Source: Felis catus (lineage: Eukaryota). Taken from it: DNA of 64,000 nucleotides. The position numbers and the translations under genes were made by a program. Below, in pieces: positions 2,994 through 35,426 of the stretch. Positions within the stretch are counted from its first letter, which is position 1. The number at the start of each line of letters is the position of its first letter. The notes beneath the pieces were generated by a model. It was not told the origin of the DNA. It made no database searches and saw only the letters and a list, made by a program, of their open reading frames with translations. The stretch is taken from assembly GCF_018350175.1 (NCBI RefSeq), contig NC_058369.1:162378001-162442000 (forward strand). Reading direction: 5' to 3'.

Positions 2994-3413
2994 TGTACCT
3001 TCCTTCTTTCTAAGGCTCGTAAGACGACTTATGGATACTTAACCTCATTTCTTTGTGGTGCCCGAAAGAGGATTGAAGTCACTTGTTTATCCAATAGCAT
3101 CTATGGCCAAGGTGGCTCATTAAGCTTGCTAGCAGCTGATGTCACACGGTCCCAGGGTAGCTGTGTGGATGGAGAGAGGGAGGCTGGCTAAAGGTCCCAC
3201 AAGGGTCAGTGGACCTCTCTTCGACCGCAAGCTGACTTACACAGATAACAATGGGGAACGGTTTAAAGAGAAGTCACTGATGATTTCTAGAAAGGTAGAT
3301 CACATTCAGCTCTGCTTTGTATAAGGGATACTCATTAAATTGGATATCCTAGTTGATAGGAGGCTACAGAGTTCTGGGCAGCAACACTAAGCACATTTGT
3401 ATTTGCTCCAAAG

Positions 3414-5528
3414 GGAAGAAGAAAATGGTGGCCGGAAGAGAGGCAGATGCACAGACCTTGGCTGTAGAATCCACAGTGCTTCCGGCCCCTTCAGTGGAGA
3501 CCCGTAGTTCCCACGGTAATCCCAGCCTTTGTGAAGTTGAAGTAGATGGACCCAGGAAAATCAAGAGGACTTACAGACCCCGTTCAATCCAGAGGTCATG
3601 GTTTGGGCAGTTCCCGTGGTTAGTAATCGACCCCAAAGAGACCAAGCTCTTCTGTTCAGCTTGCAAAGAAAGACCTAGTCTCCACGACAAATCATCCCGG
3701 TTAGTCCGCGGTTACACGGGGCCTTTTAAAGTGGAGACTTTGAAATACCACGAGGTCAGCAAAGCACACAAGCTCTGTGTCAACACCGTGGAAGTCAAGG
3801 AAGACACCCCTCAGGCTGCCCCGGTCCCAGAGATCTCCAGTGACCTGATGGCGAACATGGAGCACTTTTTCAACGCCGCCTACTCCATCGCGTATCACTC
3901 GAGGCCCCTGAATGACTTTGAGAAGATCCTGCAACTCCTCCAAAGCACCGGGACCATGATCTTGGGCAAGTACCGCAATCGCACCGCGTGCACGCAGTTC
4001 ATCAAATACATCTCTGAGACTCTCAAGAAGGAGATCCTCGAGGATGTCCGGAGCTCCCCTTGTGTGAGCGTGTTGTTGGACAGCTCCACGGACGCCTCCG
4101 ACCAGTCCTGCGTGGGGATTTATATCCGCTACTTTAAGGGCATGGAGGTGAAAGAGTCGTACATTACTTTGGCCCCTCTCTACAGTGAGACGGTGGATGG
4201 ATACTTTGAGACCATCATCTCTGCCCTGGATGAACTGGACATCCCCTTCCGGAAGCCCGGTTGGGTGGTCGGCCTGGGAACCGATGGCTCGACCATGCTG
4301 AGCTGCAGAGGAGGCCTCGTGGAAAAGTTCCAGGAGGTCATCCCCCAGCTGCTGCCTGTCCACTGCGTCGCCCACCGGCTGCACCTGGCTGTGGTCGACG
4401 CTTGTGGGGGCATCGATCTGGTGAAGAAGTGTGACCGGCACATTCGGACCGTCTTCAAGTTTTATCAGTCCTCGAATAAAAGGCTGAACGAGCTGCAGGA
4501 AGGCGCGGCTCCCCTAGAGCAGGAAATCATCCGCCTGAAGGACCTGAACGCCGTCAGGTGGGTGGCCAGCAAGAGGCGCACGTTGAACGCGCTCATCGTG
4601 AGCTGGCCGGCCCTGGCGAGGCACCTCCAGGGCGTGGCGGAAGCCGGGGGCCAGATCGGGCACAGGGCCAGAGGCATGCTGAAGCTGATGAAAAGCTTCC
4701 ATTTCGTCAAGTTCTGCCACTTCCTTTTGGACTTCCTGAGCATCTACAGGCCTCTGTCCGAGGTGTGCCAGAAGGAGATCGTGCTGATTACGGAGGTGAA
4801 CTCCACACTGGGACGGGCCTACGTGGCCCTGGAGACCCTCCGTCACCAGGCAGGGCCCAAAGAGGAAGAGTTCAACGCCAGCTTCCGGGACGGGCGGCTC
4901 CATGGCATCTTCTTGGACAGAATGCAGATGGCAGAGCAGCGGTTCCAGGCGGACAGGGAGAGAATGATCCTGACCGGGATCGAGTACCTCCAGCAAAGGT
5001 TTGACACAGACCGGCCCCCGCAGCTCAAGAACATGGAGGTGTTTGACACCATGGCCTGGCCAAGTGGGATTGAACTTGCCACTTTTGGGAACGATGACAT
5101 TCTTGCCCTTGCCAGATACTTTGAGCTCTCCCTCCCCGCAGGGTACAGTGAGGAAGCACTCCTGGAGGAGTGGCTGGGCCTGAAAGCCATCGCCAAGAAC
5201 CTCCCGTTCTCCATGCTGTGTAAGAACGCCCTGGCCCAGCACTACCGGTTCCCCTTGCTGAGCAGGCTGGTGGCGGTGGTGGCCTGCGTGCCCGTCTCCA
5301 CCTCCTGCTGTGAGCGGGGCTTCAGTGCCATGAACCGGATCAGGACCGACGAGAGGACCAAGCTCTCCAACGAGGTGATCAACATGCTCATGATGACGGC
5401 AGTGAACGGTGTGGCAGTCACGGAGTACGACCCCCAGCCCGCCATCCAGCACTGGTACCTGACCTCCTCAGGCCGGCGTTTCAGCCACGTCTACACTTGT
5501 GCCCAAGCGCCACCTCGCTCCCATGTGG
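3414..5528 (+). CDS. ZNF862: ZNF862 large exon: TTF-type zinc finger + hAT transposase core + hATC dimerisation domain
   Basis: Within ORF 3353..5542; acceptor ccaaag|GG, donor GTGG|gtaagt; motifs [42 protein letters not shown]; recognised as ZNF862. Confidence 0.95.
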
Positions 5529-6661
5529 GTAAGTCCGTGTGACAGAGTTCCTAGACGTGGGAAAACGAAGGGAGAGAATCTTATCTTCCCAATCCCATGC
5601 TGACCTTGGACACGGAGGTGTTTGACACTGTGTCAGCTGTCACAATAGGCGTGGTCTCAGTGGGTGCGCGAGACACGACATCTACCCTCACACAGCTTAT
5701 GATCCGGCTAGGGAGGCAGGGCATACTCGCTGCGGGCAGCAGGGAGTAGTGCTGAGAGCACGAATTTTCGGAGCCAGTCTGCCCGCTGGTTCCGCTAACT
5801 AGTGTGTGACGTCGGGCAGGTTAATCGCATTGTGCTTTGGTTTTTTTTCTGTAAAGTGAATTAATACGTGTCGAGTGCACAACGTCTGGCCCCTAATGCC
5901 AGCGGCACCCTCTGAAGGTTAAGACCAGGACTGGAAGTAACCAGAGGACTGGACAAGCTGGGGTGGTGAGCTCACGTTCTCCGGGGTGCTGTGTCGGCTC
6001 TTTCGGGAGGGAAGAAGTCAGGTCGGAGGGGCCAAGAAGAAGATTCTAGGTGGAGGAGCGAGCTGGGGCATCCTGGGCAGGGAGGCGTCTGTGAGGGGCA
6101 CAGCCCAACTAGCCTGGGGGCCGGGGTGGGGACGGACTGGAGGGACGCTTATGTTATATGGGAGGTGAGTTACTGAGTCTGAAGTGAGCAAGTCTCCTCT
6201 TTTCAAGTAGTCCCTGAAAACCAAAGAGGTCCTCCAGGCTATTCGTGTGTCACTTCTCAGTGACAGCAATGAAGTTTCTTCCTTGACATCTTGTTGTTTC
6301 TGGTCCCCTTCCATTGCTTGTGCTCCTGTGTGGTTACTGCCCGGTCTGTGGTCATCAGCTGCGGACAGGGTCCCAGGCTTGCCAGGGGCTCCCCAGGAAG
6401 CAGGGCGGCCCTGGCCCCATTGCTGGGCAAGGGGAGGGGCCTGGGGTGGAAGTGGAGAGAGGAGACGGGGAGAAAGGTAGGGAGCTGGAGAGTGAATCCT
6501 TCGCCCATGCGTTTGCTGAGTGAGTTGCTCCCCGCGTCCAGCCGTGTGGGGGTGAAGGGTGCTCTCAAGTGTGCCCTTTTGCAGGGGGCGGTGGGACTAG
6601 TACATCTGAAGCAAATACAGGGCACTACCAGATTTGATAGGATAAGGCCCTCCTTTCCAGG

Positions 6662-21799: not shown

Positions 21800-22760
21800 C
21801 CAAGGGGCGCAGCCTCCGTGGCCCCTGAACGGCTGTTTGCGGAGGTGGTAGCGCGTCCCAGGAGACATGGGCGAAGACTTCGCGGCACCGCCAAGCGGTG
21901 GGGAACCGTCCCGGGAGACACCCCGGGAGGGCTTCCCGAAATGCCGCGCGAGCCTTCAAGGCTGGAAGAGACCCCGACAACATGTCCATTACAATGGCTG
22001 CGGTTCCGTCTGTCTGCGCGCGGGTCGCACTCGGGCATCTTCCCCGGGCGCAGGGAGCCCGGGTCGGAAAGGGCCTTGGACATCAGCTAGGGAGGAAGAC
22101 TAGGCCACCGCTGTCTCTTCGCGCGTGTGACTGCTTTCTCGAGGCCACGTAGCTGAAGCAGCGATATTAAACTAGTGCTAGGGTTTCCCAGCCACGGTGA
22201 AAAGAACGCGCGACTTCGGGCGGAGCGGACCCCGCAAACCTAGGGCTTCCGGCCGCGGCCGCCCGCGCCTGCGCACTGGGGGGCGCGGGCCGCCAGCTGG
22301 AGGAGCGTACCATCCTCAGGCAGGGGTGGGCGCGCGTCGCTCCCGGAACTAGCCCCTGCGCGTCCCGGAAGTCGAGCCCCCTACCCCGGCTCCTTTGGGC
22401 CTTTGGTGTCTTCCGGGGGCTCCCGCCGCGGCTGGGGGTGAGGCGCGGTGGCCGGTGGGGCGGTGGGCTCGTCGCTGCCGACTGCTGCGGGGCTGTCGGC
22501 TGCGGCGGGAGCGGCGTCCGGCTTCGCAGCTTCGCGGGCCTGGTCTCAGCGGGCGGCCAGGCCCCTCCCGGACCCCAGGCCCTAGGTAAGCCGGGGAGGG
22601 GGCGTTGCGGTCCCGCTTCACGGACGCGGACGCCGGGGCTGGAGGGTGGGGCGCCTTGCCCAGCCCCTCCCGGCGCGTCGGAAGGCCCCGGGGTCTCCCT
22701 CCCTGGCTAGCAGCCCCCTCCCAGTGCCCGGCGCCTAAAGCACGCCCGGTGAGGCAGTAT
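21800..22760 (+). promoter_or_regulatory. LRRC61: CpG island promoter and non-coding exon 1 of LRRC61 (donor after 22585), likely shared with ZBED10
   Basis: CpG-dense; NRF1-like GCGCCTGCGCA (~22265), ETS CCGGAAGT (~22365); CTAG|gtaagc donor. Confidence 0.75.
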
Positions 22761-24676
22761 GTATTGGACAGCGGGTCGTGTCCAGTCTCGCTCTGTGCCA
22801 GGGACTGCCCTTAAACAGGCTTCTACATGTTTTAGCTCACGGAACAAGCCTGTGAGGTGGGGGCTGTTATCCCTGTTGTATAGGTGAAAAAACCGAGGCA
22901 CCCTAGTGCGGGATCGTAGGTAGCTGTTGAGTGGGTAGCAGCCAGGATTTCAGCCCACGTATCCTGGCTCCAGACCTCATGCTCTTCAGTCCATTATGGA
23001 AGGCAGCCTCGCAGAACACAGCAACGGGTTCTCCTGGTGTGTAATTTAAAACAGATCTCATCTTTTGTCACTTTGGCATAATGTGAAATCTAACAACACG
23101 CGATTATTCTTTAAAACGTCTCGCTTCGGGTTTGCTGGAAGCCAAATTTTCATGCGTGGTCAAACTCCAAAACGTATAGTAACTTGCTCTACTCTTTTCC
23201 TTCCTCCCATTCTTTTTCTCCCCACCTTTCTGTCTCCCCGCAAGTGAGTGGGTGGAGGGTGGGGGATGAGGAACCCAGGACTTGAGGGCCCAGCAAGTGC
23301 CTTGAAATGTCCTGGGGTCTGGGATGGATAGACAGCGCAGGAGCTAAGACAGGAGGGGGCTGGTCGGTGGGATTGGGCAGTAAAAACAGAGAGAAAGGTG
23401 TGGCATAGTTATGGGATACCCTGGGCAGGCTGAGCTCTGCACAAGGCTCTGGGGTGAGGCAGACACAGAGAAGTAGGGAAGTGGTTCCTTGCCTTCTGGG
23501 CATGCACATGGGGAAAGGGCTGCTGAGTGCAGTTAGAAGAGAGCCCCCTGATCCATGCAGGCTGCACAGATGTAGGAGACATGCAAGAGACACCTGCCAT
23601 CTCAGTCTCAGCCAGCAGGTTGCTGCCTCTGGAGACCTATGGCTTCCCCTTGGGAATCTGTAGGCTCCTTGTCATAAACTGCCTCAGTTCCTTCCCCCAC
23701 CTGCACTCAGGGGCTTGCCTGGCACCGCAGCCATCCGTCTTTCTTTGCTCTCAGAGAAAATAGATTCTTTCTCGTCTCCAAAGATAAACCCGCTCACCGC
23801 CTGTGTCCTGCATCCCTTTGCCAAAGAAAGTTCCTGCCATCACTTCTTTCCTGTATATGTATATTCTTTTCTCTCTTCCCACTGCGCCCTTTCTCTGTTT
23901 GGAGATGAAGTCAAGCCTTTTATCTCCAAAGCGTGGCCCTTCTTTCCCCACCCCACCTCTGACATGGCAGGCACCTGTGTCCCCCAGTTCTCACTGCACA
24001 GCCATGTCTCTGTCTTCGTCCTCTGCAGTGACCTTGACTCTGCCTGGCCTACCTGGAGAGTCTTCTCTTGGCTTTCCTAACTTGGCTTTAGTTTCTTCTG
24101 TGTCTGTCTTTGCCTGTCAGTCATTTTGGAAGTCCCCTCCCCTTCTGGCCTCTCTACAGTGTCCGCGTTGCCTGGATAGCCGCCCGCCACTCTCTTCTCC
24201 CTCCGGCCCTTTCCTTAGTTTCTGTGGAGGCTTTCACACGGATCTGTACCTTTAGCTCAGACCTTACCTCGTATCTGTCACATGTATTTCTAAAGATTTG
24301 TTGCAGAACAACTGCGAATCAGTATATCCAAAAGTGACCTGCATTAGTCAATGGGATCACTAGGGAGTCCCCCTCTGTCCCCCAGTTCTTCTCCACATGT
24401 GCCTCTGGAAGAGCTGTCCAAACTGTCCCCGCAGCCCCAGTCCCTCTGCCACTATCTGCCCGGCCCTCCTCACCCCCCGTGTGCCGTGCCTGCCTCACAT
24501 GGCCTCGCTGCAGTGCTCGTGATGCTGCTCAGTGGGTAGCCCGAGGGCCTCTGCGTTGTAGCTGTCCTCTAATGTGCGTTTATCATCTCTCAGGAGAAAT
24601 GTCACAAGTAACTTCTCACCGATAACCAAAGTACTGGAGTTTTTGAATGGTTTTCCTTTCAAATTTTGCATCTTAG

Positions 24677-24847: not shown

Positions 24848-27450
24848 GTAAGTGACCCCTCGCAGGATGGAGTCCAAAGTCCAGTGTCACAGAATCCGTT
24901 TATCTGTAGGTCAGGCCGAGGCCCGGCCTTCACAGCGCGGACACCGCTTGCCGTGGTCTGGTGCCATGAGCCCATTTCCAGGTTGTCTTCTTGTCTAAGC
25001 CTCGGGTGCCAGCCGGGTGCTTCCTCTCCTGTATTTGTGTCTTCAGGGCACGGGGCTGGCTTACGGCAGGTATCCGATGAATTCTTGTTAAGTGGTCCAA
25101 TGGATCGACCAAAAAAGATGTACTGACGGGACAAGGCACATTGGAGAACAGAACGGGACTGGTGTGAGTCAGGCACAGTCCTAACACACCGGTTTTTTCC
25201 TTTTCTCGGCCATCACTGGTGAGCGCAGGTCTGACTCGGGCCAGGTTTCAGTTGCTCGCTCTGAGCTGTCAGTGGTGGTAAAGCCTACAGGCCGCTTCCG
25301 GAGGCCTGCTGCCGGCCCTGGTCGTCCGCTCTGCCATCACGCCCCCACTCTGGATTTCCAGTTCTACAGCCATGAAATAAGAGCTGAGGTAAGCCCAGTC
25401 CGGTTCTGATGTCCCAGAGCACTTCTCCTGGGCCCCGGGATGGTGTCTTACAGTTCGCGGCACCTTCGTCCAGCCTGTCCACGGTGCCTCTCCGTGGGGG
25501 GGGGTCACACATTTGGTGTGGCAGCAGCTGGGTTCTTGGGCAGTGGGCCTGGGGTGATGCCTCTCATCCTTCTGAGGTTTTCCCCGCTGGGAGGGGCTCA
25601 GCATCACGTCACTCACCCTCTTATATGGTCAGAATCTTCCCGGAGCCGCCTTAGTGGGCTTGTCACCTACAAAGGCAGTCCTGCTCTCCCTGGTGATTCT
25701 GTTTTTCTTTTTCTCTGTTTCCCCCTCCCCCCCCCCTGCCCCCCATGTACATGTGCACGAGAGGGGTGGGGGAGAGGGTGGGCACTGGTGGGGGGGAAGG
25801 GGGCAAAGGGAGAGAAAGAATCTTAAGCAAGCTCCACTCCCAGTGTGGAGCCTGCCTGGTGATTCTTTTTAATGTTTAACATCACTCAGTGTCAGAACGT
25901 ACTGGTTTTAAATCTTCCTGTTTAATCCGTATCTCATTTTGGCGTGATGAGACTTGAACTCCACTTGCTTTCTGATGTGTGTGGTGAGCTGTTAGGTCAC
26001 CTTCTGCGAGTCTGTCCTTGTCTAGAGAGATGCATTCTCGCGCTGGGCTTTTTCTTTCTTTCTTTCCCTTTCCACGTACTTCTCTTCTGACTTCTCTGTG
26101 TCTCTTTTCTGGTGTGCCTGGATCTGACTGTGACCCGATCTCTAGGAGAGCGAACGAGGAGAAGGGAGGTAAAGGTCGTGCCTGGGCTTGAGCATCTGGG
26201 TAGACACTGTCCCGTTTACGAGTGAGGTGACTATAGGAAGACAGGTGAGCGGGAGCTGGAGAGAGCCATCTGAGCCGGAGAGAGGCTCGCCGTGTCAGTG
26301 TGTAAACGCAACCCCAGTTGGGGAGGGTATGTGAACTGAGAATCGAGATCTGGGTGCGAACCCTGGGAAACAGCAGGAAGAAACGGGCGGAGGAAGAGGG
26401 ACCAGAACTGAGATTGCAGGGGAGGTGCAGGTGGAAGTGTGGTATCCCAGGGCCACGGAAAGGTGGCGTTCCAGACAGAGGACGTGGGCCGGCCCCCACG
26501 GGTTGCAAAGAGGTCCATTGGAGGCGGTGCCGAGGGGGACGCTGGTGGCCTTGGCAAGAAGGGTGTTGACGAGCGGTGGGGGCCAGATCCAGAGCATAGA
26601 GTCTCTCTAGGACAGAGAGAGGGGAGTGACAGGACACTGGGGGGCACGCGTCACTGGCATCAGGGGCTACCCTGTTCTGTGCTGCTGTCCTGTGTTCCTG
26701 ACGCAGGCTGATTTCTAGAGAAGGAATTTCAGAAGATCTAAGCAAGGCCTCTGGCGGCCTCACCGCCCAGTACCCAGCATCATGACCTGTTTCTGATGCC
26801 CTGCCAGGTGACGGGCACAGCCTGGGTGCCCAGGATGCAGAGACATGGGCTCCATGCCTCCTGGCCTGAGCTGACGGCACCTGGCGCCTGCACCTCTGCC
26901 AGGGAGACCTGCCTGACTTCTTGGCCAGGTCGGTCCCCTCCTTGGGGACTCACAGTTGCAAGTGGCGCCCCTCTGTTCCTGCACCTCCCTGTTGTGTGGG
27001 TCAGTCTCTTACTTCTGTCTCTCCAGCCAAGCTGGAGGCCACGTGCACGCAGGGACCTTGCCGATCTTCTCCGTTACCACAACAAGGCAGAATCGCCAAG
27101 TGCCGGCTGGGTTCTCAATAAACATCGAAAGGAAAAAGAGAACCTCAGTTAGTTTGGCAAAGATGGATGTAGAAACTGCTAACGTACAGAGGGCCCTGGG
27201 GATTCTGGATGAGGGCTGTTCCATTCAGTCTGGAGGAGCGAATGTCAGCCTTCACCAAGGAGGTTGCGGTCTTGAGAGTTTTGTCCCAGGGCTGATTTCC
27301 TAGGCTCTCCCTACGCCTCTGTCCTCTGCTCGTTTTTCTCCCCTCTGGCCTTCCCTGCAGAGTCCCCACGGTTGAGTAGGGGAGCTGAGAGCCGTTCTTT
27401 TCATCTTGCTTTGCAGCCTGGGCCCATCTCATTTCCCCAAGTTCCCAAGC

Positions 27451-30400
27451 ATGTTGGAAGTGGAAAAAATCGGGAAGCCCCCCAAGAGACATACACCTTC
27501 AGGATCAGTGGGGCAGGGGCCGTCTGTGTGTGCTGCCTCCTCTGTGACCAGACCCAGGAGCCCAGCTGCTTCCTTGGCTTCTCCTAGCTCCAAGTTTAAA
27601 ACCAGAGCTACCAATACCTCTCACGGACTCGGCTGGGGTGCGGGGGGGCGCCTGCCGGAGACCGAGGTCAAACTTGAGTTTGTAGACATAGGAGAGAGGG
27701 CTGTCAGTGGCCACAGCAAGATCGGACTGTCTGCCTCCCCGAAGGGGAGTGAGACGGATCTGCCCCTACGGAGGAAGAGACCTCACCCCCTCCCCAGTTC
27801 CTCGTCTGTCCCTTCACCTGACGGAGTTTTCCTGGAGGAGCAGGAGGAAGGCACCCCGGGCCTACTTGTCCACAGTGAGACGAGCGAAGCCTGCTCCCTG
27901 GGGAGGCCCGGTCTGCACCCAGCTGCCTCCCGTGAAACGTGCCAGGCCAGCCCTGGGCGGAGGAAGCCAAAGGGCGACTCTGGCCTCTACAGCCTCAAGT
28001 CTGTGCTTGGGCAGGAGCCCCCTGGGCAGCCCGAGAAGAAGGTGTCCAAACAGAAGGCACGAGGGCAGAGGGAGGAGGGGGAGCCGACGGGAAAGAAGTC
28101 GAGGGCCCCAGCGCTCAGCTCTGGCCAGTCCCCCTCTCCCCCAGCGCTACACCAGGCAGCCGGGGCGGACAGGCCAGAGGTGGGCCAGCCTGGTGAGAGT
28201 GAGAAGGCAAGGCGAGCTGACCTCCTCATCGCCCATCTGGCCAGAGAGCTGCGACGCCTCAAGAAATGGAAGAAGAGGCACTTGCTTGCGGCTGTCGGGG
28301 ACAAGCCACCCTGCCTGAAGAAGCTGGTCAGAACTCTAAAAGCGGAGACCAAGGGCTGGGCTTTTCCCGGGCATTCCCCCGGCCCCACGGACACCGCGGG
28401 TCACAAGGCCGTGTCAGACATCGGACGGTTCTTTACCATTGACTGCAAGGACGTCTGCCACGTCACCTGCACTCTGTGTCATGCCAGCATCAGACTGGGC
28501 AAATTTAAGGGGCATTTCCAAACCTCAGGCCTGGTCCGTCACTTGGTGAGTAAGCACGGACTAGAGAGAGACAGAAGGCCAGCCGCCGCCAGCCCGGGGG
28601 AGAAGAAGGGCGGGGCCGAGGAGAGAAAGCACAAGGGCCTGCCCGCAAGTCCTGCTGGCCTTGCCCCTGAGGGGCTGCCGTCACCAGGACGCTGCACGGA
28701 TGCCTCCCCTCTGGTGGACGGTGGCAGGCAGCTGGCGGCGGGCAGGCCTGAGCAGCTGTCACTGGCTCCACCTCTCTTGCCTCCTTCCTGTAGAGATGAC
28801 CCTGCCGCCTCCCCGCCGGCAGTCGGGGTGGGCCGGGGTGGCACCCATGCCCCCGGCCAGCCCCGAGCACAGGCCTGGACCCGCAGCATCGCGGAGTTGC
28901 TCTGCAGCCTGGCTTTGCCGCTATCCTTTGTGTCATCGCTGCCTTTCAGAAGGTTTATGGCCCAGGTCGACCCTTGCTACCACGTGCCGCCTCCCGCCTT
29001 CTTCTGCGGGAGAGCCTTGCCTCTGCTCCGTGAGGCGATCGAGGAGCAGGTGTGTCGGGAGATGCAGTGGGCCAAGGGCAGCTGTGTCCACCTCACCGTG
29101 TCCACCGCTGCCCGGGACACGGTTGTGGACTACGTGGCCATCACCGCCCACTGGGGAGCCGTACAGCCGGGCAGTCGGCGGGTGGCGTCGGGGAGCCTGA
29201 GAAAGCAGGCCGTGCTGTGGGTTCGGGGCCTGCCCCAGGAGAGCTCTCCGGAGGAGAGGCAGGGGGAGCTGCGGGAGCAGGTGGGCCTGTGGCTCAGCCG
29301 CAGCTCCCTGCAGCCAGGCTTCCTGGTGTCGGGCGGCTGCCTCGGCCTGGAGCAGGCAGTGAGGACAGAGGGCTACACCCACCTCCCCTGCTTTGCCCAC
29401 TGCCTCGACTCCCTGGTGAGGAACTTCCTGCGTCACCATCAGAGCGTCCAGCTCATCCTGGGTACGGTGCGGGCCATCTGCAGCCATTTCCAGGGCTCCG
29501 CGGAGGCCCGGCGGCTCCTCGGCCAGCTGCAGCAGCAGCGTGGCCTCCCAGCCCAGCAGCCCTTCTGGGAGCTCTCGGACCACTGGGTGTCCGCCTACTG
29601 CTTGCTGGAGTGGCTGGTGAGGCAGCAGCGGCCCTTGCAAGAGTACGAGAGGCGACACCAGCTGGGCAAGGCTGGGACGGCCCTGTCGACTACGTTTTGG
29701 AGCCTGACGGACAGTCTGGTCACGCTCCTGCAGCCCTTCTGGGTGGCGGTCCGGGAGGCGAGCGCCGCGCGGGCTTCTTTAAGCCAGGTGCTGCCCCAGC
29801 TACGCTACCTGCATATCTTCCTGGAGCAGGTTAACCGGCACTTCGAGGAGCAGGGTGGCGGGGAGGTGGGGGCAGCCGTCCGGCTGGCCAAGGGCTTGGC
29901 CCTGCAGCTCTCCACAGACGGCCAGCTCAACGAGCTCTTCCACCGCAAGGAGTTTGTGCTGGCGACCCTCCTGGACCCCCGCTTCAAGGGGAAGATCGAG
30001 TCCATCCTGCCCGCGGGGGCCGACATTGACCACTGGAAGCAGGTTCTCGTGTACAAGGTGAAGGAGATCATGGTGTCTGACTACTCCTTGCCTCCCTCAC
30101 CCTCCCTGCACAGCCCCAAGGCGAGGCGTGCGGGCCCTACCCCGAGCGGCCGAGTCACCAGGAGCCTCGGGGCCGAGGGGAAGGGCCAGAAGGTGCCTGT
30201 GCAGGGGGGCGGTGGCTCGGGGTCTCTGCTGCTGGACCAGAGGGAGAAGAGCTTGCTGGAGCAGCTGGAAAGCGTGGGGCTGCTGGCGTCCAAGAGAAGC
30301 GGAGCGTCGCTCTCCACCGAGAGCCACTTGGCCAGTGTCATCGTCAAGAAGTACCTGCGTGAGAATGAGACAGTTGGCGCCCAGGAGGACCCGCTGGTTT

Positions 30401-30681
30401 ACTGGGAGAAGAGGCAGGAGGTCTGGCCAGCTCTGGCGAGACTGGCCACTGTCTACCTGTCCTGTCCCCCGACGGGGGCCTTCTCTGGAAGCGTCTGTGC
30501 CTCCCTGGACAGCCCTGCCCTTGCAGAGCATAGCGCCCCTCTCCCAGTGGGGACCATTGAACATCTCCTCTTCTTGAAGAGCAACCTGGAGAATTTCCCC
30601 GACTACCCTGCCCCTGCCCTCATCTTCCCCAGTGGAGACCCGGCCGACGGGGAGCAGAACAGCGAGGCCGACCTCGTCTGA
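27451..30681 (+). CDS. ZBED6CL: Intronless BED-finger domesticated hAT transposase, 1076 aa (ZBED6CL/C7orf29/ZBED10 orthologue)
   Basis: Uninterrupted ORF from agcATG 27451; BED finger CTLC...HLVSKH (~28420-28560); hAT motifs LPCFAHCL, LATLLDPRFK, DPLVYW..WPALARLA..YLSCPP; C-terminal part VREASAARASLSQVLPQLRYLHIFLEQV matches recalled human ZBED6CL; acceptor at 27360/27361. Confidence 0.9.
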   Translation: MLEVEKIGKPPKRHTPSGSVGQGPSVCAASSVTRPRSPAASLASPSSKFKTRATNTSHGLGWGAGGRLPETEVKLEFVDIGERAVSGHSKIGLSASPKGSETDLPLRRKRPHPLPSSSSVPSPDGVFLEEQEEGTPGLLVHSETSEACSLGRPGLHPAASRETCQASPGRRKPKGDSGLYSLKSVLGQEPPGQPEKKVSKQKARGQREEGEPTGKKSRAPALSSGQSPSPPALHQAAGADRPEVGQPGESEKARRADLLIAHLARELRRLKKWKKRHLLAAVGDKPPCLKKLVRTLKAETKGWAFPGHSPGPTDTAGHKAVSDIGRFFTIDCKDVCHVTCTLCHASIRLGKFKGHFQTSGLVRHLVSKHGLERDRRPAAASPGEKKGGAEERKHKGLPASPAGLAPEGLPSPGRCTDASPLVDGGRQLAAGRPEQLSLAPPLLPPSCRDDPAASPPAVGVGRGGTHAPGQPRAQAWTRSIAELLCSLALPLSFVSSLPFRRFMAQVDPCYHVPPPAFFCGRALPLLREAIEEQVCREMQWAKGSCVHLTVSTAARDTVVDYVAITAHWGAVQPGSRRVASGSLRKQAVLWVRGLPQESSPEERQGELREQVGLWLSRSSLQPGFLVSGGCLGLEQAVRTEGYTHLPCFAHCLDSLVRNFLRHHQSVQLILGTVRAICSHFQGSAEARRLLGQLQQQRGLPAQQPFWELSDHWVSAYCLLEWLVRQQRPLQEYERRHQLGKAGTALSTTFWSLTDSLVTLLQPFWVAVREASAARASLSQVLPQLRYLHIFLEQVNRHFEEQGGGEVGAAVRLAKGLALQLSTDGQLNELFHRKEFVLATLLDPRFKGKIESILPAGADIDHWKQVLVYKVKEIMVSDYSLPPSPSLHSPKARRAGPTPSGRVTRSLGAEGKGQKVPVQGGGGSGSLLLDQREKSLLEQLESVGLLASKRSGASLSTESHLASVIVKKYLRENETVGAQEDPLVYWEKRQEVWPALARLATVYLSCPPTGAFSGSVCASLDSPALAEHSAPLPVGTIEHLLFLKSNLENFPDYPAPALIFPSGDPADGEQNSEADLV

Positions 30682-30959
30682 CGCCCTGAAAGTCTGCCTG
30701 TGGGAAGTGTGTCCGGCATCAGAGGGGAGGGCAGGATGCTGCACCCTAGGGCATTAGACAGAGGTGGCCAGAGTCCTCCCTCCACCTGTTTGGAGGGAAT
30801 AGGGACAGGTTCTCGATTCTTGACACATTGCCCTTTTTTTTCTTCCCCAGGGTGATGTCATTTCCCATTCATATATTGCTTAATTTGTCTCTAGCGGTTT
30901 GTGCATAGAAAAGGTGAACTCTGTCCAAAAGTGACTGTAAGTTGTGCCACACACCTCTG

Positions 30960-31065
30960 TGGGTGGCACAGGGACCCCGCTGAACACCTGCCATGCGCAG
31001 GATCACCGCCACGACAGAGACTCACCCGGTCTCGGATGGCAGTCGTGCTGTGGTAAAGAACCCTG
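30960..31065 (-). mobile_element. MER20 fragment downstream of ZBED10 stop
   Basis: gctgaacacctgccatgcgcagga...gtggtaaagaaccctg resembles reverse MER20 5' end. Confidence 0.6.
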
Positions 31066-32549
31066 AACTCCACTGGGGATGGGAGGCGATGGGCCGGAGG
31101 AAGGGTCTCCGGGCTCACTGGAGCAGCCATGGGACTGTCCACTTGTGCGCTGTTAACCGTTTCCCCCTTGGCTGTAGCTGTGTCCTGCCTTGGCTGGCTC
31201 CTGGGCACCGTTTGCCAGCCCACTTGCCAGGTAGGTAAACTGAGACTCAGCAGTGGCGATTCGGAACGAGGGAAGGTGGCCTCCTGCAGGAGAGACGAGT
31301 GTCCTCTGTGCCTTAGTCATGGTCCCATCCGTGTGACCAAATCCTGTCCGCAGACACATGTTGGACCAGGATAGGAGGACTCGGATTCTGGATGTTCAGG
31401 GGTGAGCGTTGCAGGGGGTTGGCGTGGATGAGCCAATTCCCTCAGCAGGGCCCACCCGCTCCAAGCTGCCACCTGTGTGTCAGCTGGGTTTGCACAGCGG
31501 GTGGGAGGGCGCTCGGTCGGTCGGGCCCAGACCTGCCTGGTTGAGGCGTGCGGATTTCAGGGAGCATGGGACCGGGGGGGCAGAGCAGAAGTCTGTGCAC
31601 TGGAGAGTCAGGGATTCACCTTGGTGACTATGCAGTCCTATCACCGGCGGGGGCGTGGGGCGGTGAGCTGGAGGGCCACAAGTCTCCTCCCAGGCAGGAC
31701 TTGGGGGCACAGAAGTCCCGATTTCCAGTTAATGTGCTCTTTGCTCCTCTGTTTCCTCTCCTGCAAAAAGCGTTCTTCCCAGCTGTAACGTGGGGAGCAC
31801 GTACAATTCCTCCCTTCCTCCTACCACCGCCCCTACCCGGTCCTCCTGTCCTTTCCCTCCACAGCAGCCATCTCTGTCTAGACGGTCATCGAGCCAGTTC
31901 TCCAGGGCATGGCTCCCTAACCGTTGTGGTCAGTCTGTGGGCTTGCCCCTGCCCGGGGGCCTCATCTCTGAGTCTGGTGGGCGTTGGAACAGTGTCCGTC
32001 ACTGGGTCCTTGCACGCCTCCTTCTGGCTGCTCGTCAGTGCCCTCCACTCAGCCTAATAAATGTTGGTGTTCTTTCGATGTCGGCCCATGACTGCTCCCT
32101 TTCTCTGTGCGCCAGGGGCTCCTGACCACATTCACCCCCAAAATAGCGTGTGGTTGGGAAGCTGTGCGTAATCCCGGACAGAGGCCTGCAGATACTTAAA
32201 GAGGTCTGTGTCCTCCAGAAGCCTGGCCCGTGAGCCACACATTCTCCCTGGGCACCTCTGCGGATGACGCTTGAGTCCCTTTAGCCTAGAGCTTCGACTG
32301 CCTCCTAGGCCCGATGCACATGGTCACCTCCAGCTGGATGTCTTCTTGCCCCCTCCCTCAGGCTGTCCCATGTGCCCCACATGTCGGGGAAGGGAGCCCC
32401 TGCATCCAGTGACGTGGCTAGACCCTTGGAAGCTGTTCTACACGCTTCAGTGCTCGCTGCCTTCCGTGAAGCCCTGTCTCTCCAGTGCTTTTATGGCAGG
32501 TTCTAGTGTCTGGTGACCCTCTCGCACCCCTCACCCCCATGGGTGACAG

Positions 32550-34010: not shown

Positions 34011-34646
34011 ACTGAGTCAAGAACATTTTTGAGAGAACGAAGCAAGGCCTATCGTGCTGTCTTGCGTCTGCATATGGAAGGAAACAAAACAGATTGTTGG
34101 TGGTGGTGACCTATAATCTATTCAAAAACTAAAATAGTTAAAAAGAAACACCTCAGAATTCATAAAGATAGATCATAAAGAGCGGTTGCCAAAAGAGGAA
34201 AATTTAGAGATTTTGCCTCCTGGTGCAGATACGGAAAAGGGGAAGAATCTGAATTCCGTCCGCTATGGCCGTAACCGCTCGAGCCTCGTCAGGGCCCCCC
34301 GCTTAGGTGGGGGCCTGCGCCTGGCCCGCCTCCCTCAGGGGGGCTCTGTGGCCTCAGGTCTTGCTGGGCCAGCTCGCTTTCTGCCTCAGTGGCAGAGGCT
34401 GGGCGGTACTTGGTGCCGTCGACGGCTGCGGACTCAGGACGCTCAGGAGAGGCCTGCTCACTGTTTGCTTGTCTCTCCTCAGGAGCCTCCGGCCCTTGAG
34501 CAGCGGTGCTGGAAACAGGCCTCCGGCCCTGGCCCAGGCGGACTCGAGGGTGCCTTTTTCTGGGCGCGCGGTCAGCCGACCCCTCCCGGCACCCACGTCC
34601 CTGTGACAGGACCAGGGCCCCGGGCCGCCTGGACGGACCACGTCTG

Positions 34647-35426
34647 ATGGAGCCCCAGGCTGAGAAGCCAGGAGAGGCGGACGGGGCGCGCGTCACACCG
34701 CAGCTGCTCAAGTCGCGCTCGGGTGAGTTCGCCCTGGAGTCCATCCTGCTGCTGAAGCTTCGGGGTCTGGGGCTGGTGGACCTGGGCTGCCTGGGGGAGT
34801 GCCTGGGTCTCGAGTGGCTGGACCTGTCCGGCAATGCGCTCACCCAGCTGGGCCCGCTGGCCTCCTTGCGCCGGCTGGTGGTGCTCAATGTCTCCGACAA
34901 CCGGCTGACGGGGCTGGAGCCGCTGGCCGCCTGCGAGAACCTTCAGAGTCTCAATGCCGCGGGCAACCTGCTGGCCACCCCCGGGCAGCTGCAGTGTCTG
35001 GCCGGCCTGCGGGGCCTCGAGTGCCTGCGGCTCCGGGACCCCTTGGCCCGACTCGGCAACCCGCTGTGCGCCAGCCCCTCCTACTCCACGCTAGTCCGAG
35101 AGCTGCTGCCCGGCCTGAAGGTCATCGATGGCGAGCGCGTGACCGGGCGTGGCAGTGAGTTCTACCAGCTGTGCCGGGACCTGGACAGTTCCTTGCGCCC
35201 CGGCTCCAGCCCGGGCCCGAGAGCCGCTGAGGCGCAGCCCTGGGTAGAGCCAGGGTACTGGGAGTCGTGGCCCCCCCGGAGCAGCTCCATCCTGGAGGAG
35301 GCGTGCCGGCAGTTCCGGGACACGCTGCAGGAGTGCCACGAGCTGGACCGCCAGGCCAGCGACAGCCTGGCCCGGGCCGAGCAGGCGCTCGGCCCTGCGG
35401 GCGCCGCCTCGTCCTTTGTGTTTTGA
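34647..35426 (+). CDS. LRRC61: Leucine-rich repeat-containing protein 61 (259 aa, single coding exon; acceptor before 34483)
   Basis: LRR motifs LEWLDLSGNALT, LVVLNVSDNRLT, LQSLNAAGNLL, LRR cap LPGLKVIDG; ends SSFVF*. Confidence 0.95.
   Translation: MEPQAEKPGEADGARVTPQLLKSRSGEFALESILLLKLRGLGLVDLGCLGECLGLEWLDLSGNALTQLGPLASLRRLVVLNVSDNRLTGLEPLAACENLQSLNAAGNLLATPGQLQCLAGLRGLECLRLRDPLARLGNPLCASPSYSTLVRELLPGLKVIDGERVTGRGSEFYQLCRDLDSSLRPGSSPGPRAAEAQPWVEPGYWESWPPRSSSILEEACRQFRDTLQECHELDRQASDSLARAEQALGPAGAASSFVF

What the first reader, a model, noticed from the sequence alone, without database searches (positions are those of the whole stretch)
27451..30681. Intact full-length ZBED10/ZBED6CL: a 1076-aa domesticated hAT protein that appears to be only a remnant in human
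Seen: a 3.2-kb stop-free intronless ORF with a low-complexity basic N-terminus, one BED finger, a hAT core and a hATC domain. Recalled: human ZBED6CL/C7orf29 is a ~236-aa piece matching only the part from ~29745 onward and is now treated as a pseudogene (ZBED10P). Inference: felids keep a functional, little-characterised ZBED6-like DNA-binding factor that was lost on the human lineage.
Basis: partly seen in the sequence, partly recalled or inferred. Interest (0 to 1): 0.8.

Follow-up and report, generated by a model that had tools for sequence, protein, structure and literature searches.

The report
Ancient transposase gene humans lost
This cat gene is the intact, full-length form of a tamed "jumping-gene" enzyme (ZBED10) that many vertebrates from frogs to New World monkeys still carry but that is broken in humans, apes and Old World monkeys; it has lost its DNA-cutting residues and most of its DNA-reading fingers, so it likely works as a self-pairing nuclear partner protein rather than as a classic DNA-binding repressor.

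Summary
The 1,076-aa intronless ORF is real and single-copy. It is the ortholog of human ZBED10P (C7orf29/ZBED6CL) and frog ZBEDX, between the LRRC61 promoter and LRRC61 coding exon. Human Q96FA7 matches only aa 765-993. It is not felid-specific: 82 of 88 hits are full length (1,016-1,159 aa), across placentals including New World monkeys, platypus, turtles and amphibians, with a coelacanth sister. Loss is not human-specific: apes and Old World monkeys share the same lesions; cattle, whales and mouse lemur give only decayed pieces; no mouse, bird or marsupial copy was found. It folds like Hermes transposase, but two catalytic aspartates are absent in 81 of 81 orthologs. The DNA-binding reading is weak in placentals: BED finger I is gone in 52 of 52, finger II evolves 2.0x the core rate (0.42x in non-placentals) and is destroyed in 10 of 52 intact ORFs. 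Dimer surfaces and a SUMO-type motif are conserved; a homodimer is predicted. Expression and dN/dS were not tested. Databases annotate these proteins; the one paper on them calls the mammalian gene truncated.

The parts
27451..30681 (+). ZBED10 (ZBEDX/C7orf29/ZBED6CL ortholog) coding sequence, 1,076 aa, intronless
22001..23000 (+). CpG island with splice donor after 22585; likely promoter and non-coding first exon shared with LRRC61 (inferred)
   Evidence: CpG o/e 0.97 and 0.71; donor, no ATG in 22200-22585; many ortholog models are filed as LRRC61 isoform X1
27361..27450 (+). ATG-free leader with two candidate splice acceptors (exon starts 27361 and 27417)
   Evidence: the leader's translation is recognisable in marmoset and bat models, and an alpaca model joins at the position matching 27417
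27667..27678 (+). aa 73-76 VKLE, SUMO-type psi-K-x-E motif (consensus recalled); the most conserved island in the disordered first 140 aa
   Evidence: K74 in 47 of 52 placental and 29 of 29 non-placental rows
27871..28035 (+). aa ~141-195, vestige of BED finger I
   Evidence: aligns to intact finger I of platypus, turtle, amphibians; evolves at linker rate in placentals (12.5 vs core 5.1) but 3.6 vs 4.3 in non-placentals
28198..28287 (+). aa 250-279 predicted basic helix, candidate nuclear localisation signal, placental-type
   Evidence: helix in model; K271, K272, K274, K275 in 47-49 of 52 placentals
28411..28569 (+). aa 321-373 BED finger II, zinc ligands C340 C343 H364 H369 present in cat, signature Trp lost
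28861..29085 (+). aa 471-545 Hermes-type dimerisation (DBD) domain; predicted homodimer interface aa 475-506
29086..30078 (+). aa 546-876 RNase H-like domain with helical insertion; first two catalytic Asp replaced (S551, G628)
30250..30336 (+). aa 934-962 motif specific to the ZBED10 clade, not seen in ZBED6, ZBED4, ZBED1
   Evidence: region 926-966 is the slowest in non-placentals
30349..30588 (+). aa 967-1046 hATC domain; Y984, W985, L995 invariant in placentals; catalytic Glu position is G1013 in cat
29743..30429 (+). part matched by the 236-aa human remnant (aa 765-993)
30682..32080 (+). predicted 3' UTR ending at the first downstream AATAAA (32056-32061) followed by a GU-rich tract
   Evidence: not confirmed by reads
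34483..35426 (+). LRRC61 coding exon (acceptor 34483, ATG 34647), the likely alternative last exon of the same transcription unit
   Evidence: LRR Pfam hits, sequence

Best explanation
This is the intact cat ortholog of ZBED10 (frog ZBEDX, human pseudogene ZBED10P), a single-copy domesticated hAT transposase that lacks its catalytic aspartates and that likely acts in placental mammals as a self-pairing, probably SUMO-modified nuclear scaffold or co-regulator rather than as a ZBED6-type sequence-specific repressor. Shown: intact frame, orthology and synteny, Hermes fold, dead DDE site, loss of BED finger I and erosion of finger II in placentals, conservation of the dimer domain, hATC hydrophobic residues, the clade-specific motif and K74. 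Predicted: homodimer through aa 475-506. Inferred: transcription from the LRRC61 CpG-island promoter as an alternative last exon (27361/27417 to about 32080), nuclear import, SUMOylation at K74, recruitment to chromatin through partners or the dimer domain. The job is useful but dispensable: the gene decayed once in the ancestor of apes and Old World monkeys and separately in other lineages.
For: Single copy; no matching inverted repeat with a target-site duplication in 3 kb flanks (3 chance 11-mers, at most 2 of 8 bases matching). Gene order ZNF862-like exon, ATP6V0E2, LRRC61, RARRES2, REPIN1, as for human C7ORF29 and frog ZBEDX in PMC3606216 Table 1. Tree follows vertebrate relationships; tetrapod clade support 1.00, coelacanth P0327 sister 1.00, ZBED6 outside. 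Asp1 and Asp2 absent in 81 of 81 rows; Glu kept in 28 of 29 non-placentals but 21 of 52 placentals. Two BED motifs in 29 of 29 non-placentals; at most one in 52 of 52 placentals. BED-II rate relative to core 2.02 (site bootstrap 1.77-2.43) in placentals, 0.42 (0.25-0.62) in non-placentals; 10 of 52 placental ORFs lack a full C2H2 set, 5 of them bats with a clean in-frame 20-aa deletion of the recognition helix. Positions that count back to Hermes base-reading residues R63-R70 (PMC10368747 passages; mapping by counting from the first His, inferred) are near-invariant outside placentals and variable inside. Y984, W985, L995, matching ZBED1 W590, W591, L601 needed for self-association (review PMC7471704), are kept in 52 of 52 placentals and 29 of 29 others. 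Homodimer of aa 468-966: score 0.35, best of 3 controls 0.00, runs agree in at least 71% of contacts, pLDDT at least 68; the mark was reached by 17 of 29 eukaryotic solved homodimers (animals 7 of 16) and 0 of 30 single chains, but by only 1 of 7 without a solved relative, so the pass may reflect likeness to Hermes. Human ESTs and RNA-seq join LRRC61 exons into this locus (PMC3192792; PMC9315513).
Against: No expression, protein or dN/dS data for the cat gene were obtained. In carnivores finger II keeps all four zinc ligands and a recognition segment close to the ancestral one, and among 10 other felids only 3 of 52 finger positions vary, like the core, so DNA binding in cats is not excluded. 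The dimer domain of hAT proteins can itself bind DNA (PMC8097297). The SUMO and NLS readings rest on short recalled motifs; the strict psi-K-x-E pattern is found in 38 of 52 placentals. An overall relative-rate test human vs marmoset was not significant (12 vs 11 with rabbit; 14 vs 7 with cat, p 0.19). No partner is known.
Confidence: 0.55

Rival explanations
1. It is still a sequence-specific DNA-binding transcription factor like ZBED6, using one BED finger per subunit in a dimer, with a specificity that drifts between orders.
For: All four zinc ligands in 42 of 52 placentals and in cat; finger conserved among felids; Hermes uses one BED per subunit cooperatively; BED plus dimer domain is a DNA-binding unit in CGGBPs; non-placental fingers are 42-60% identical to ZBED6 fingers, so this reading is the best one for frogs, turtles and platypus.
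Against: Signature Trp lost in 52 of 52 placentals; finger I gone; finger II about five times faster relative to the core than outside placentals; deleted or broken in 10 of 52 intact ORFs; cat finger only 31-35% identical to ZBED6 fingers, whose own fingers are near-invariant in placentals.
Confidence: 0.3
2. The gene is nearly dispensable in placentals and slowly on its way out; what remains matters little, or matters mainly by diverting LRRC61 transcripts into an upstream last exon.
For: Several independent losses; frameshifted or short models also in Lynx rufus, snow leopard, Cebus, Saguinus; C7orf29 is listed among genes with homozygous loss-of-function in people (PMC3868571), although that concerns the remnant.
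Against: About 25 stop codons would be expected over an assumed 0.3 substitutions per site of neutral drift (P intact 1.6e-11, stops only); aa 776-876 are 79-91% identical across placentals and amino-acid constraint is domain-specific, which RNA-level function does not explain. Short models in dog and camel coexist with full-length ones of the same species, pointing to assembly errors.
Confidence: 0.12
3. It is an active or recently inserted hAT transposase.
For: Whole Hermes fold, CxxH and the conserved Trp retained.
Against: No catalytic Asp in 81 of 81 orthologs; single copy; no terminal repeats; vertical tree and fixed locus.
Confidence: 0.01

Closest known systems
Human ZBED10P / ZBED6CL / C7orf29 (UniRef Q96FA7, 236 aa)
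   Same: Ortholog: same locus by LRRC61, 69% identity over cat aa 765-993.
   Different: Human piece lacks aa 1-764 and is frameshifted inside hATC; carries changes at 6 of 76 conserved sites in aa 766-875, against 0-1 in four full-length platyrrhines.
Xenopus tropicalis ZBEDX (Hayward et al. 2013, PMC3606216)
   Same: Ortholog: same clade, upstream of LRRC61, same dead Asp sites and clade-specific motif.
   Different: ZBEDX has two intact BED fingers; the cat has a vestige plus one eroded finger. The paper states that mammalian C7ORF29 lacks the N-terminal domain; the data here show that is true only of lineages that lost the gene or of short models. The zebrafish 'ZBEDX' of PMC9859435 is a different 630-aa protein.
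ZBED6 (IGF2 repressor; Markljung et al. 2009, PMC2780926)
   Same: Closest paralog in the cat genome (32% over 740 aa); intronless, nested in a host gene and sharing its promoter; hAT core.
   Different: ZBED6 keeps two near-invariant fingers and acidic residues at all three DDE positions in cat, is expressed by intron retention and has proven DNA targets; it lacks the aa 934-962 motif.
Hermes transposase (PDB 4D1Q, 2BW3, 6DWW, 8SJD, 8EDG)
   Same: Fold of aa ~470-1050 (Foldseek E 2.2e-13, target TM 0.65-0.71; profile E 2.6e-10).
   Different: No DDE triad, no terminal repeats, long disordered N-terminus, fixed single copy.
ZBED1/hDREF
   Same: hATC residues needed for self-association are kept.
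   Different: Separate domestication; ZBED1 has an intact finger and SUMO-ligase activity, untested here.

Membership tests
ZBED10/ZBEDX/C7ORF29 ortholog group | Locus next to or inside LRRC61, same strand | tested here: met
   PMC3606216 Table 1
ZBED10/ZBEDX/C7ORF29 ortholog group | Clade with frog ZBEDX and platypus, apart from ZBED6 | tested here: met
   FastTree support 0.99-1.00; no formal topology test run
ZBED (domesticated Ac-type hAT) | BED finger Cx2C-n-Hx3-5[H/C] | tested here: met
   C340 C343 H364 H369, but below the Pfam cut-off and without the signature Trp
ZBED (domesticated Ac-type hAT) | hAT core and hATC domain | tested here: met
ZBED (domesticated Ac-type hAT) | Single copy, fixed locus, no terminal repeats | tested here: met
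   (one search used a stricter first look, so weak copies may be missed)
ZBED (domesticated Ac-type hAT) | Expressed as mRNA and protein | not tested
   no reads were laid on the locus; only indirect signs (RefSeq model names, human junctions)
ZBED (domesticated Ac-type hAT) | dN/dS below 1 | not testable with these tools
   no ortholog DNA obtained (one search found none); protein-level proxies
ZBED6-type repressor | Two near-invariant BED fingers | tested here: not met
ZBED6-type repressor | Sequence-specific DNA binding and repression | not testable with these tools
   needs SELEX, ChIP-seq, reporter assays
Active hAT transposase | DDE catalytic triad | tested here: not met
   S551, G628, G1013 in cat; both Asp absent in 81 of 81; a multicopy Bombina relative keeps all three in the same alignment
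Active hAT transposase | Terminal inverted repeats with 8-bp target-site duplication | tested here: not met
hAT-derived dimers | Self-association through the dimer domain and hATC | tested here: inconclusive
   predicted pass 0.35 vs 0.00, possibly from likeness to Hermes; residues conserved; not measured

The most novel reading that the evidence does not exclude
At the origin of placental mammals the two ancient sister genes divided labour: ZBED6 fixed its two DNA-reading fingers and became the IGF2 repressor, while ZBED10 shed its fingers and became a SUMOylated dimer partner or decoy that pairs with ZBED6 and tunes growth-gene repression. Pigs, horses, dogs, cats, rabbits and marmosets would have this modulator; humans, cattle and probably mice would not, which would hide it from both main model systems.
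Probability: 0.1. Interest if true: 0.8.

Novelty: new variant of a known kind. Interest (0 to 1): 0.45.

Why it matters
The gene is named and full-length proteins sit in RefSeq/UniRef under misleading labels (LRRC61 isoform X1, ZBED6, ZBED6 C-terminal-like), but the only paper found that treats it says the mammalian gene is a truncated piece without BED fingers. The evidence here corrects that: it is a roughly 400-million-year-old (date recalled) full-length paralog of ZBED6, intact in most sampled placental orders, a unitary pseudogene in apes and Old World monkeys, with further independent losses. Because human is broken and no mouse copy was found, it has had no functional study; it can be tested in Xenopus, pig, cat or dog cells and marmoset. 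The placental-specific decay of its DNA-reading fingers alongside a conserved dead-transposase core asks what that core does, a question left open for all ZBEDs. Domesticated hAT genes as such are a well-known kind, which caps the surprise.

Tried and rejected
Expression: the run search listed 24 runs, 20 holding at least half of the words, none on record as RNA: 'no RNA holder listed', no evidence either way; no reads were laid, so transcript structure and level stay open. The median length of 18 unnamed placental Logan contigs carrying the full ORF is 4.8 kb, close to the predicted 4.7-kb last exon, but library type is unknown, so this is not used as evidence. Ortholog DNA for dN/dS: metagenome scan gave 87 pattern matches, none confirmed; the DNA alignment in the supplement of PMC3606216 was not opened or used. 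Single-sequence search of PDB sequences: 0 hits at E<=1; the profile and fold searches then found Hermes. Overall relative-rate test human vs marmoset: not significant. The frameshift near aa 993 alone was rejected as proof of a single catarrhine event, because a Cebus model and an old Aotus model break at the same short repeat; five other shared changes carry that claim. Felid-specific retention, human-specific loss, active transposase and a fused LRRC61-ZBED10 protein (no ATG in the candidate first exon or leader) were considered and rejected. Earlier scan notes: none by sequence; none holds the gene's names. Literature searches for a description of the full-length mammalian protein or its losses found none; 'zbed10' occurs in 0 papers of the library; subscription journals are not covered. 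A ZBED10-ZBED6 heterodimer was not modelled.
Full report
OBSERVATION. The ORF is as described: 27451-30681 on the + strand, 1,076 aa, no internal stop, the longest stop-free frame in the window (1,101 codons stop to stop). In 100 simulated 64-kb sequences with the ORF's second-order base composition the longest frame averaged 552 and reached at most 989. The core shows a coding signature (GC3 0.87, GC2 0.45). Pfam finds hATC at aa 967-1046 (E 3.2e-6) and a BED finger at aa 334-369 that falls below the curated cut-off. The protein differs from ten named felid proteins at 12-28 positions, so the window is from a cat; the species is not given.

IDENTITY AND LOCUS. The neighbours are a ZNF862-like hAT exon (3353-5542; name recalled from human gene order, Pfam hATC and C17orf113-type finger), ATP6V0E2 (from about 10.6 kb), LRRC61 (coding exon to 35426), RARRES2 (minus strand) and REPIN1. 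Hayward et al. 2013 (PMC3606216; parts 1-3 of 4 of the text read, supplements not opened) place human C7ORF29 in an LRRC61 intron and frog ZBEDX upstream of LRRC61. The cat genome has one copy; the next hits are the ZBED6-, ZBED4- and ZBED1-like genes at 32, 26 and 27%. No terminal inverted repeat with a target-site duplication flanks it.

DISTRIBUTION. A search with aa 300-1076 returned 88 proteins, 82 of them 1,016-1,159 aa. Named full-length copies come from carnivores, pangolins, perissodactyls, camelids, pigs and peccary, bats, mole, xenarthrans, lagomorphs, squirrels, beaver, heteromyids, hystricomorphs, jerboa, Nannospalax, four New World monkeys (titi, marmoset, squirrel monkey, owl monkey), platypus, turtles, caecilians, salamanders and frogs. 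A turtle query added a coelacanth protein. On a tree of the core the placental, platypus, turtle and amphibian copies nest as the species do; all 14 Logan clusters left without a name fall among bats, carnivores or rodents. With deeper relatives from an HMM search of 1.84 billion representatives, coelacanth P0327 is sister to the tetrapod clade (support 1.00), and ZBED6 is the sister paralog, grouped weakly (0.56) with a second coelacanth protein. FastTree supports only; no topology test was run.

LOSSES. The human protein (236 aa, 'Putative protein ZBED10P') matches cat aa 765-993, window 29743-30429, and then changes frame inside hATC. Human, chimpanzee, gorilla, Cercocebus, drill and colobus share R811Q, R844C and M874R; those still in frame there share a 3-residue deletion at 936-938 and E957K; apes, Cercocebus, pig-tailed macaque and colobus share the same frameshifted tail. 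R844 is otherwise invariant in 81 of 81 full-length rows. This places one inactivation in the catarrhine stem (about 30-40 million years ago, dates recalled). At 76 sites conserved in at least 90% of intact placentals (aa 766-875) human has 6 changes, four full-length platyrrhines 0-1, mouse lemur 7, and a beaked whale 9 of 49. An overall relative-rate test was not significant. Bos indicus, Mesoplodon, Balaenoptera and Microcebus give only short, frameshifted or decayed pieces. No named murid, cricetid, afrotherian, marsupial, bird, crocodilian or squamate copy appeared; each scored only the 8,000 best candidates, so this is 'not found', not proven loss. Hayward's ortholog list also has no mouse or cow for C7ORF29 while it has both for ZBED6. 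Short models exist for dog and camel beside full-length ones of the same species, which suggests assembly errors in this GC-rich DNA and may explain the 2013 statement that mammals lack the N-terminal part (inference). Short or shifted models in Lynx rufus, snow leopard, Cebus and Saguinus are unresolved.

SELECTION. dN/dS could not be computed. Proxies: 2.6% of weighted point mutations in this ORF make a stop, so 0.3 substitutions per site of neutral drift (assumed cat-primate distance, recalled) would give about 25 stops. Among felids 22 of 406 core positions vary against 42 of 320 in the N-terminus. On a fixed tree of 52 placental sequences the rate is 3.0 for aa 776-876, 4.1 for aa 926-966, about 5 for the dimer and hATC regions, and 11-17 for the linkers.

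ANATOMY. The AlphaFold2 model (81-sequence alignment A1; mean pLDDT 54.7, core mostly 65-93) has a disordered N-terminus, a helix at 250-279, a BED fold at 319-369 and a folded core from 471 that matches Hermes transposase (11 top-listed chains, best E 2.2e-13; profile hit E 2.6e-10). Aligned with ZBED1, ZBED6 and transposon-like relatives, the DDE positions are S551, G628 and G1013 in cat. Neither Asp occurs in any of 81 orthologs; Glu survives in 28 of 29 non-placentals and 21 of 52 placentals. Hayward's remark that the DDE triad is conserved across ZBEDs does not hold for this clade.

THE FINGERS. All 29 non-placental rows have two BED motifs; placentals have one (41) or none (11) by the same pattern. 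Finger I survives only as a vestige at aa ~141-195. Finger II has lost its signature Trp in 52 of 52 placentals; its rate relative to the core is 2.02 (1.77-2.43) against 0.42 (0.25-0.62) outside placentals; 10 of 52 lack a full ligand set, including 5 noctilionoid bats with an in-frame 20-aa deletion of the recognition helix, 3 other bats with His to Pro, mole and peccary. In Hermes the base-reading residues lie just before the first His ligand (PMC10368747, passages); the matching stretch is near-invariant in non-placentals and variable in placentals. ZBED6 fingers, by contrast, are near 100% identical across placentals (PMC2780926, passages). Against this: carnivores keep the most ancestral-looking finger and felids conserve it, and the dimer domain can contribute to DNA binding (PMC8097297, passages).

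WHAT IS KEPT. Y984, W985 and L995 correspond to ZBED1 W590, W591 and L601, required for self-association and nuclear accumulation (as summarised in review PMC7471704, passages; the original paper not read); all three are kept in 81 of 81 rows. The catarrhine frameshift removes L995 onward. A homodimer of aa 468-966 scored 0.35 against a best control of 0.00, with at least 71% contact agreement and pLDDT at least 68; the interface is aa 475-506; on eukaryotes this mark was reached by 17 of 29 solved homodimers and 0 of 30 single chains, and by 1 of 7 without a solved relative, so it may reflect likeness to Hermes. Interface positions are more uniform among placentals than the rest of the domain (0.91 vs 0.82). 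K74 in a psi-K-x-E context is kept in 47 of 52 and 29 of 29 rows; reading it as a SUMO site rests on recalled consensus. A motif at aa 934-962 marks the clade and has low confidence in the monomer model, as a partner-binding segment might.

TRANSCRIPT (inferred). A CpG island at 22-23 kb has a donor after 22585; acceptors lie at 27361 and 27417 with no ATG before the start; the first AATAAA after the stop is at 32056; LRRC61's acceptor follows at 34483. Many RefSeq models of the protein are filed as 'LRRC61 isoform X1'. Human ESTs and leukaemia RNA-seq join LRRC61 exons into the locus (PMC3192792 and PMC9315513, table passages). So ZBED10 and LRRC61 are likely alternative last exons of one promoter, comparable to ZBED6 in ZC3H11A but by a different route. 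No reads were laid, so this is untested in cat.

PRIOR KNOWLEDGE. The gene is named, and the cat protein itself is in NCBI/UniRef. Searches found no paper describing the full-length mammalian protein, its repeated loss or the finger decay; other mentions seen are gene lists or eQTL notes (passages of PMC3868571, PMC10775140, PMC4270463) and an unrelated zebrafish 'ZBEDX' (PMC9859435). The library lacks most subscription journals, and unread supplements of genome-wide gene-loss screens may list it.

VERDICT. Observation confirmed; interpretation partly supported. A real, old, selected, catalytically dead ZBED; lost in catarrhines and elsewhere; most likely a dimeric nuclear co-regulator in placentals (0.55), possibly still a DNA-binding factor (0.30). 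Interest 0.45.

Noticed in passing
window 3353-5542 (+): A second long hAT-derived frame (729 codons; hATC E 4.7e-8, C17orf113-type finger), probably the large exon of ZNF862 (name recalled from human gene order). Two domesticated hAT genes lie 22 kb apart.
   Followed up: partly
window 10.5-22.6 kb: ATP6V0E2 ends about 7 kb before the LRRC61 promoter; no ACTR3C-like gene was noticed between them, whereas human has ACTR3C in this region (recalled; name also). Not searched for directly.
   Followed up: no
proteins P0332 (Latimeria, 1,543 aa), P0336 (turtle, 918 aa), P0338 (tuatara, 786 aa): Coelacanth has a protein with three fingers 60-65% identical to cat ZBED6 fingers that groups weakly with ZBED6, although ZBED6 is described as placental-specific; turtle and tuatara have further related proteins. 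Synteny not checked.
   Followed up: partly
protein P0335 cluster (Bombina bombina): Multicopy 1,006-aa relatives on several chromosomes keep all three DDE residues: a transposon family close to the ZBED6/ZBED10 ancestor appears to persist in this toad.
   Followed up: partly
window 30418-30462: Three near-copies of a 6-bp word at the point where catarrhine, Cebus and an old Aotus model change frame; a likely microhomology deletion hotspot or assembly trouble spot.
   Followed up: partly
proteins P0241-P0245 (unnamed members of the human-protein cluster): Some members are 322 aa and read on through the hATC region instead of stopping at 236 aa; they still lack the first 764 residues.
   Followed up: no
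protein P0189 (red fox): The red fox full-length protein is filed as 'REPIN1 isoform X1', another mislabel that hides this gene in databases.
   Followed up: no
window 36.5-38.3 kb (-) and 52.6-54.4 kb (+): RARRES2 (chemerin) exons and REPIN1 C2H2 zinc-finger exon, ordinary neighbours.
   Followed up: partly
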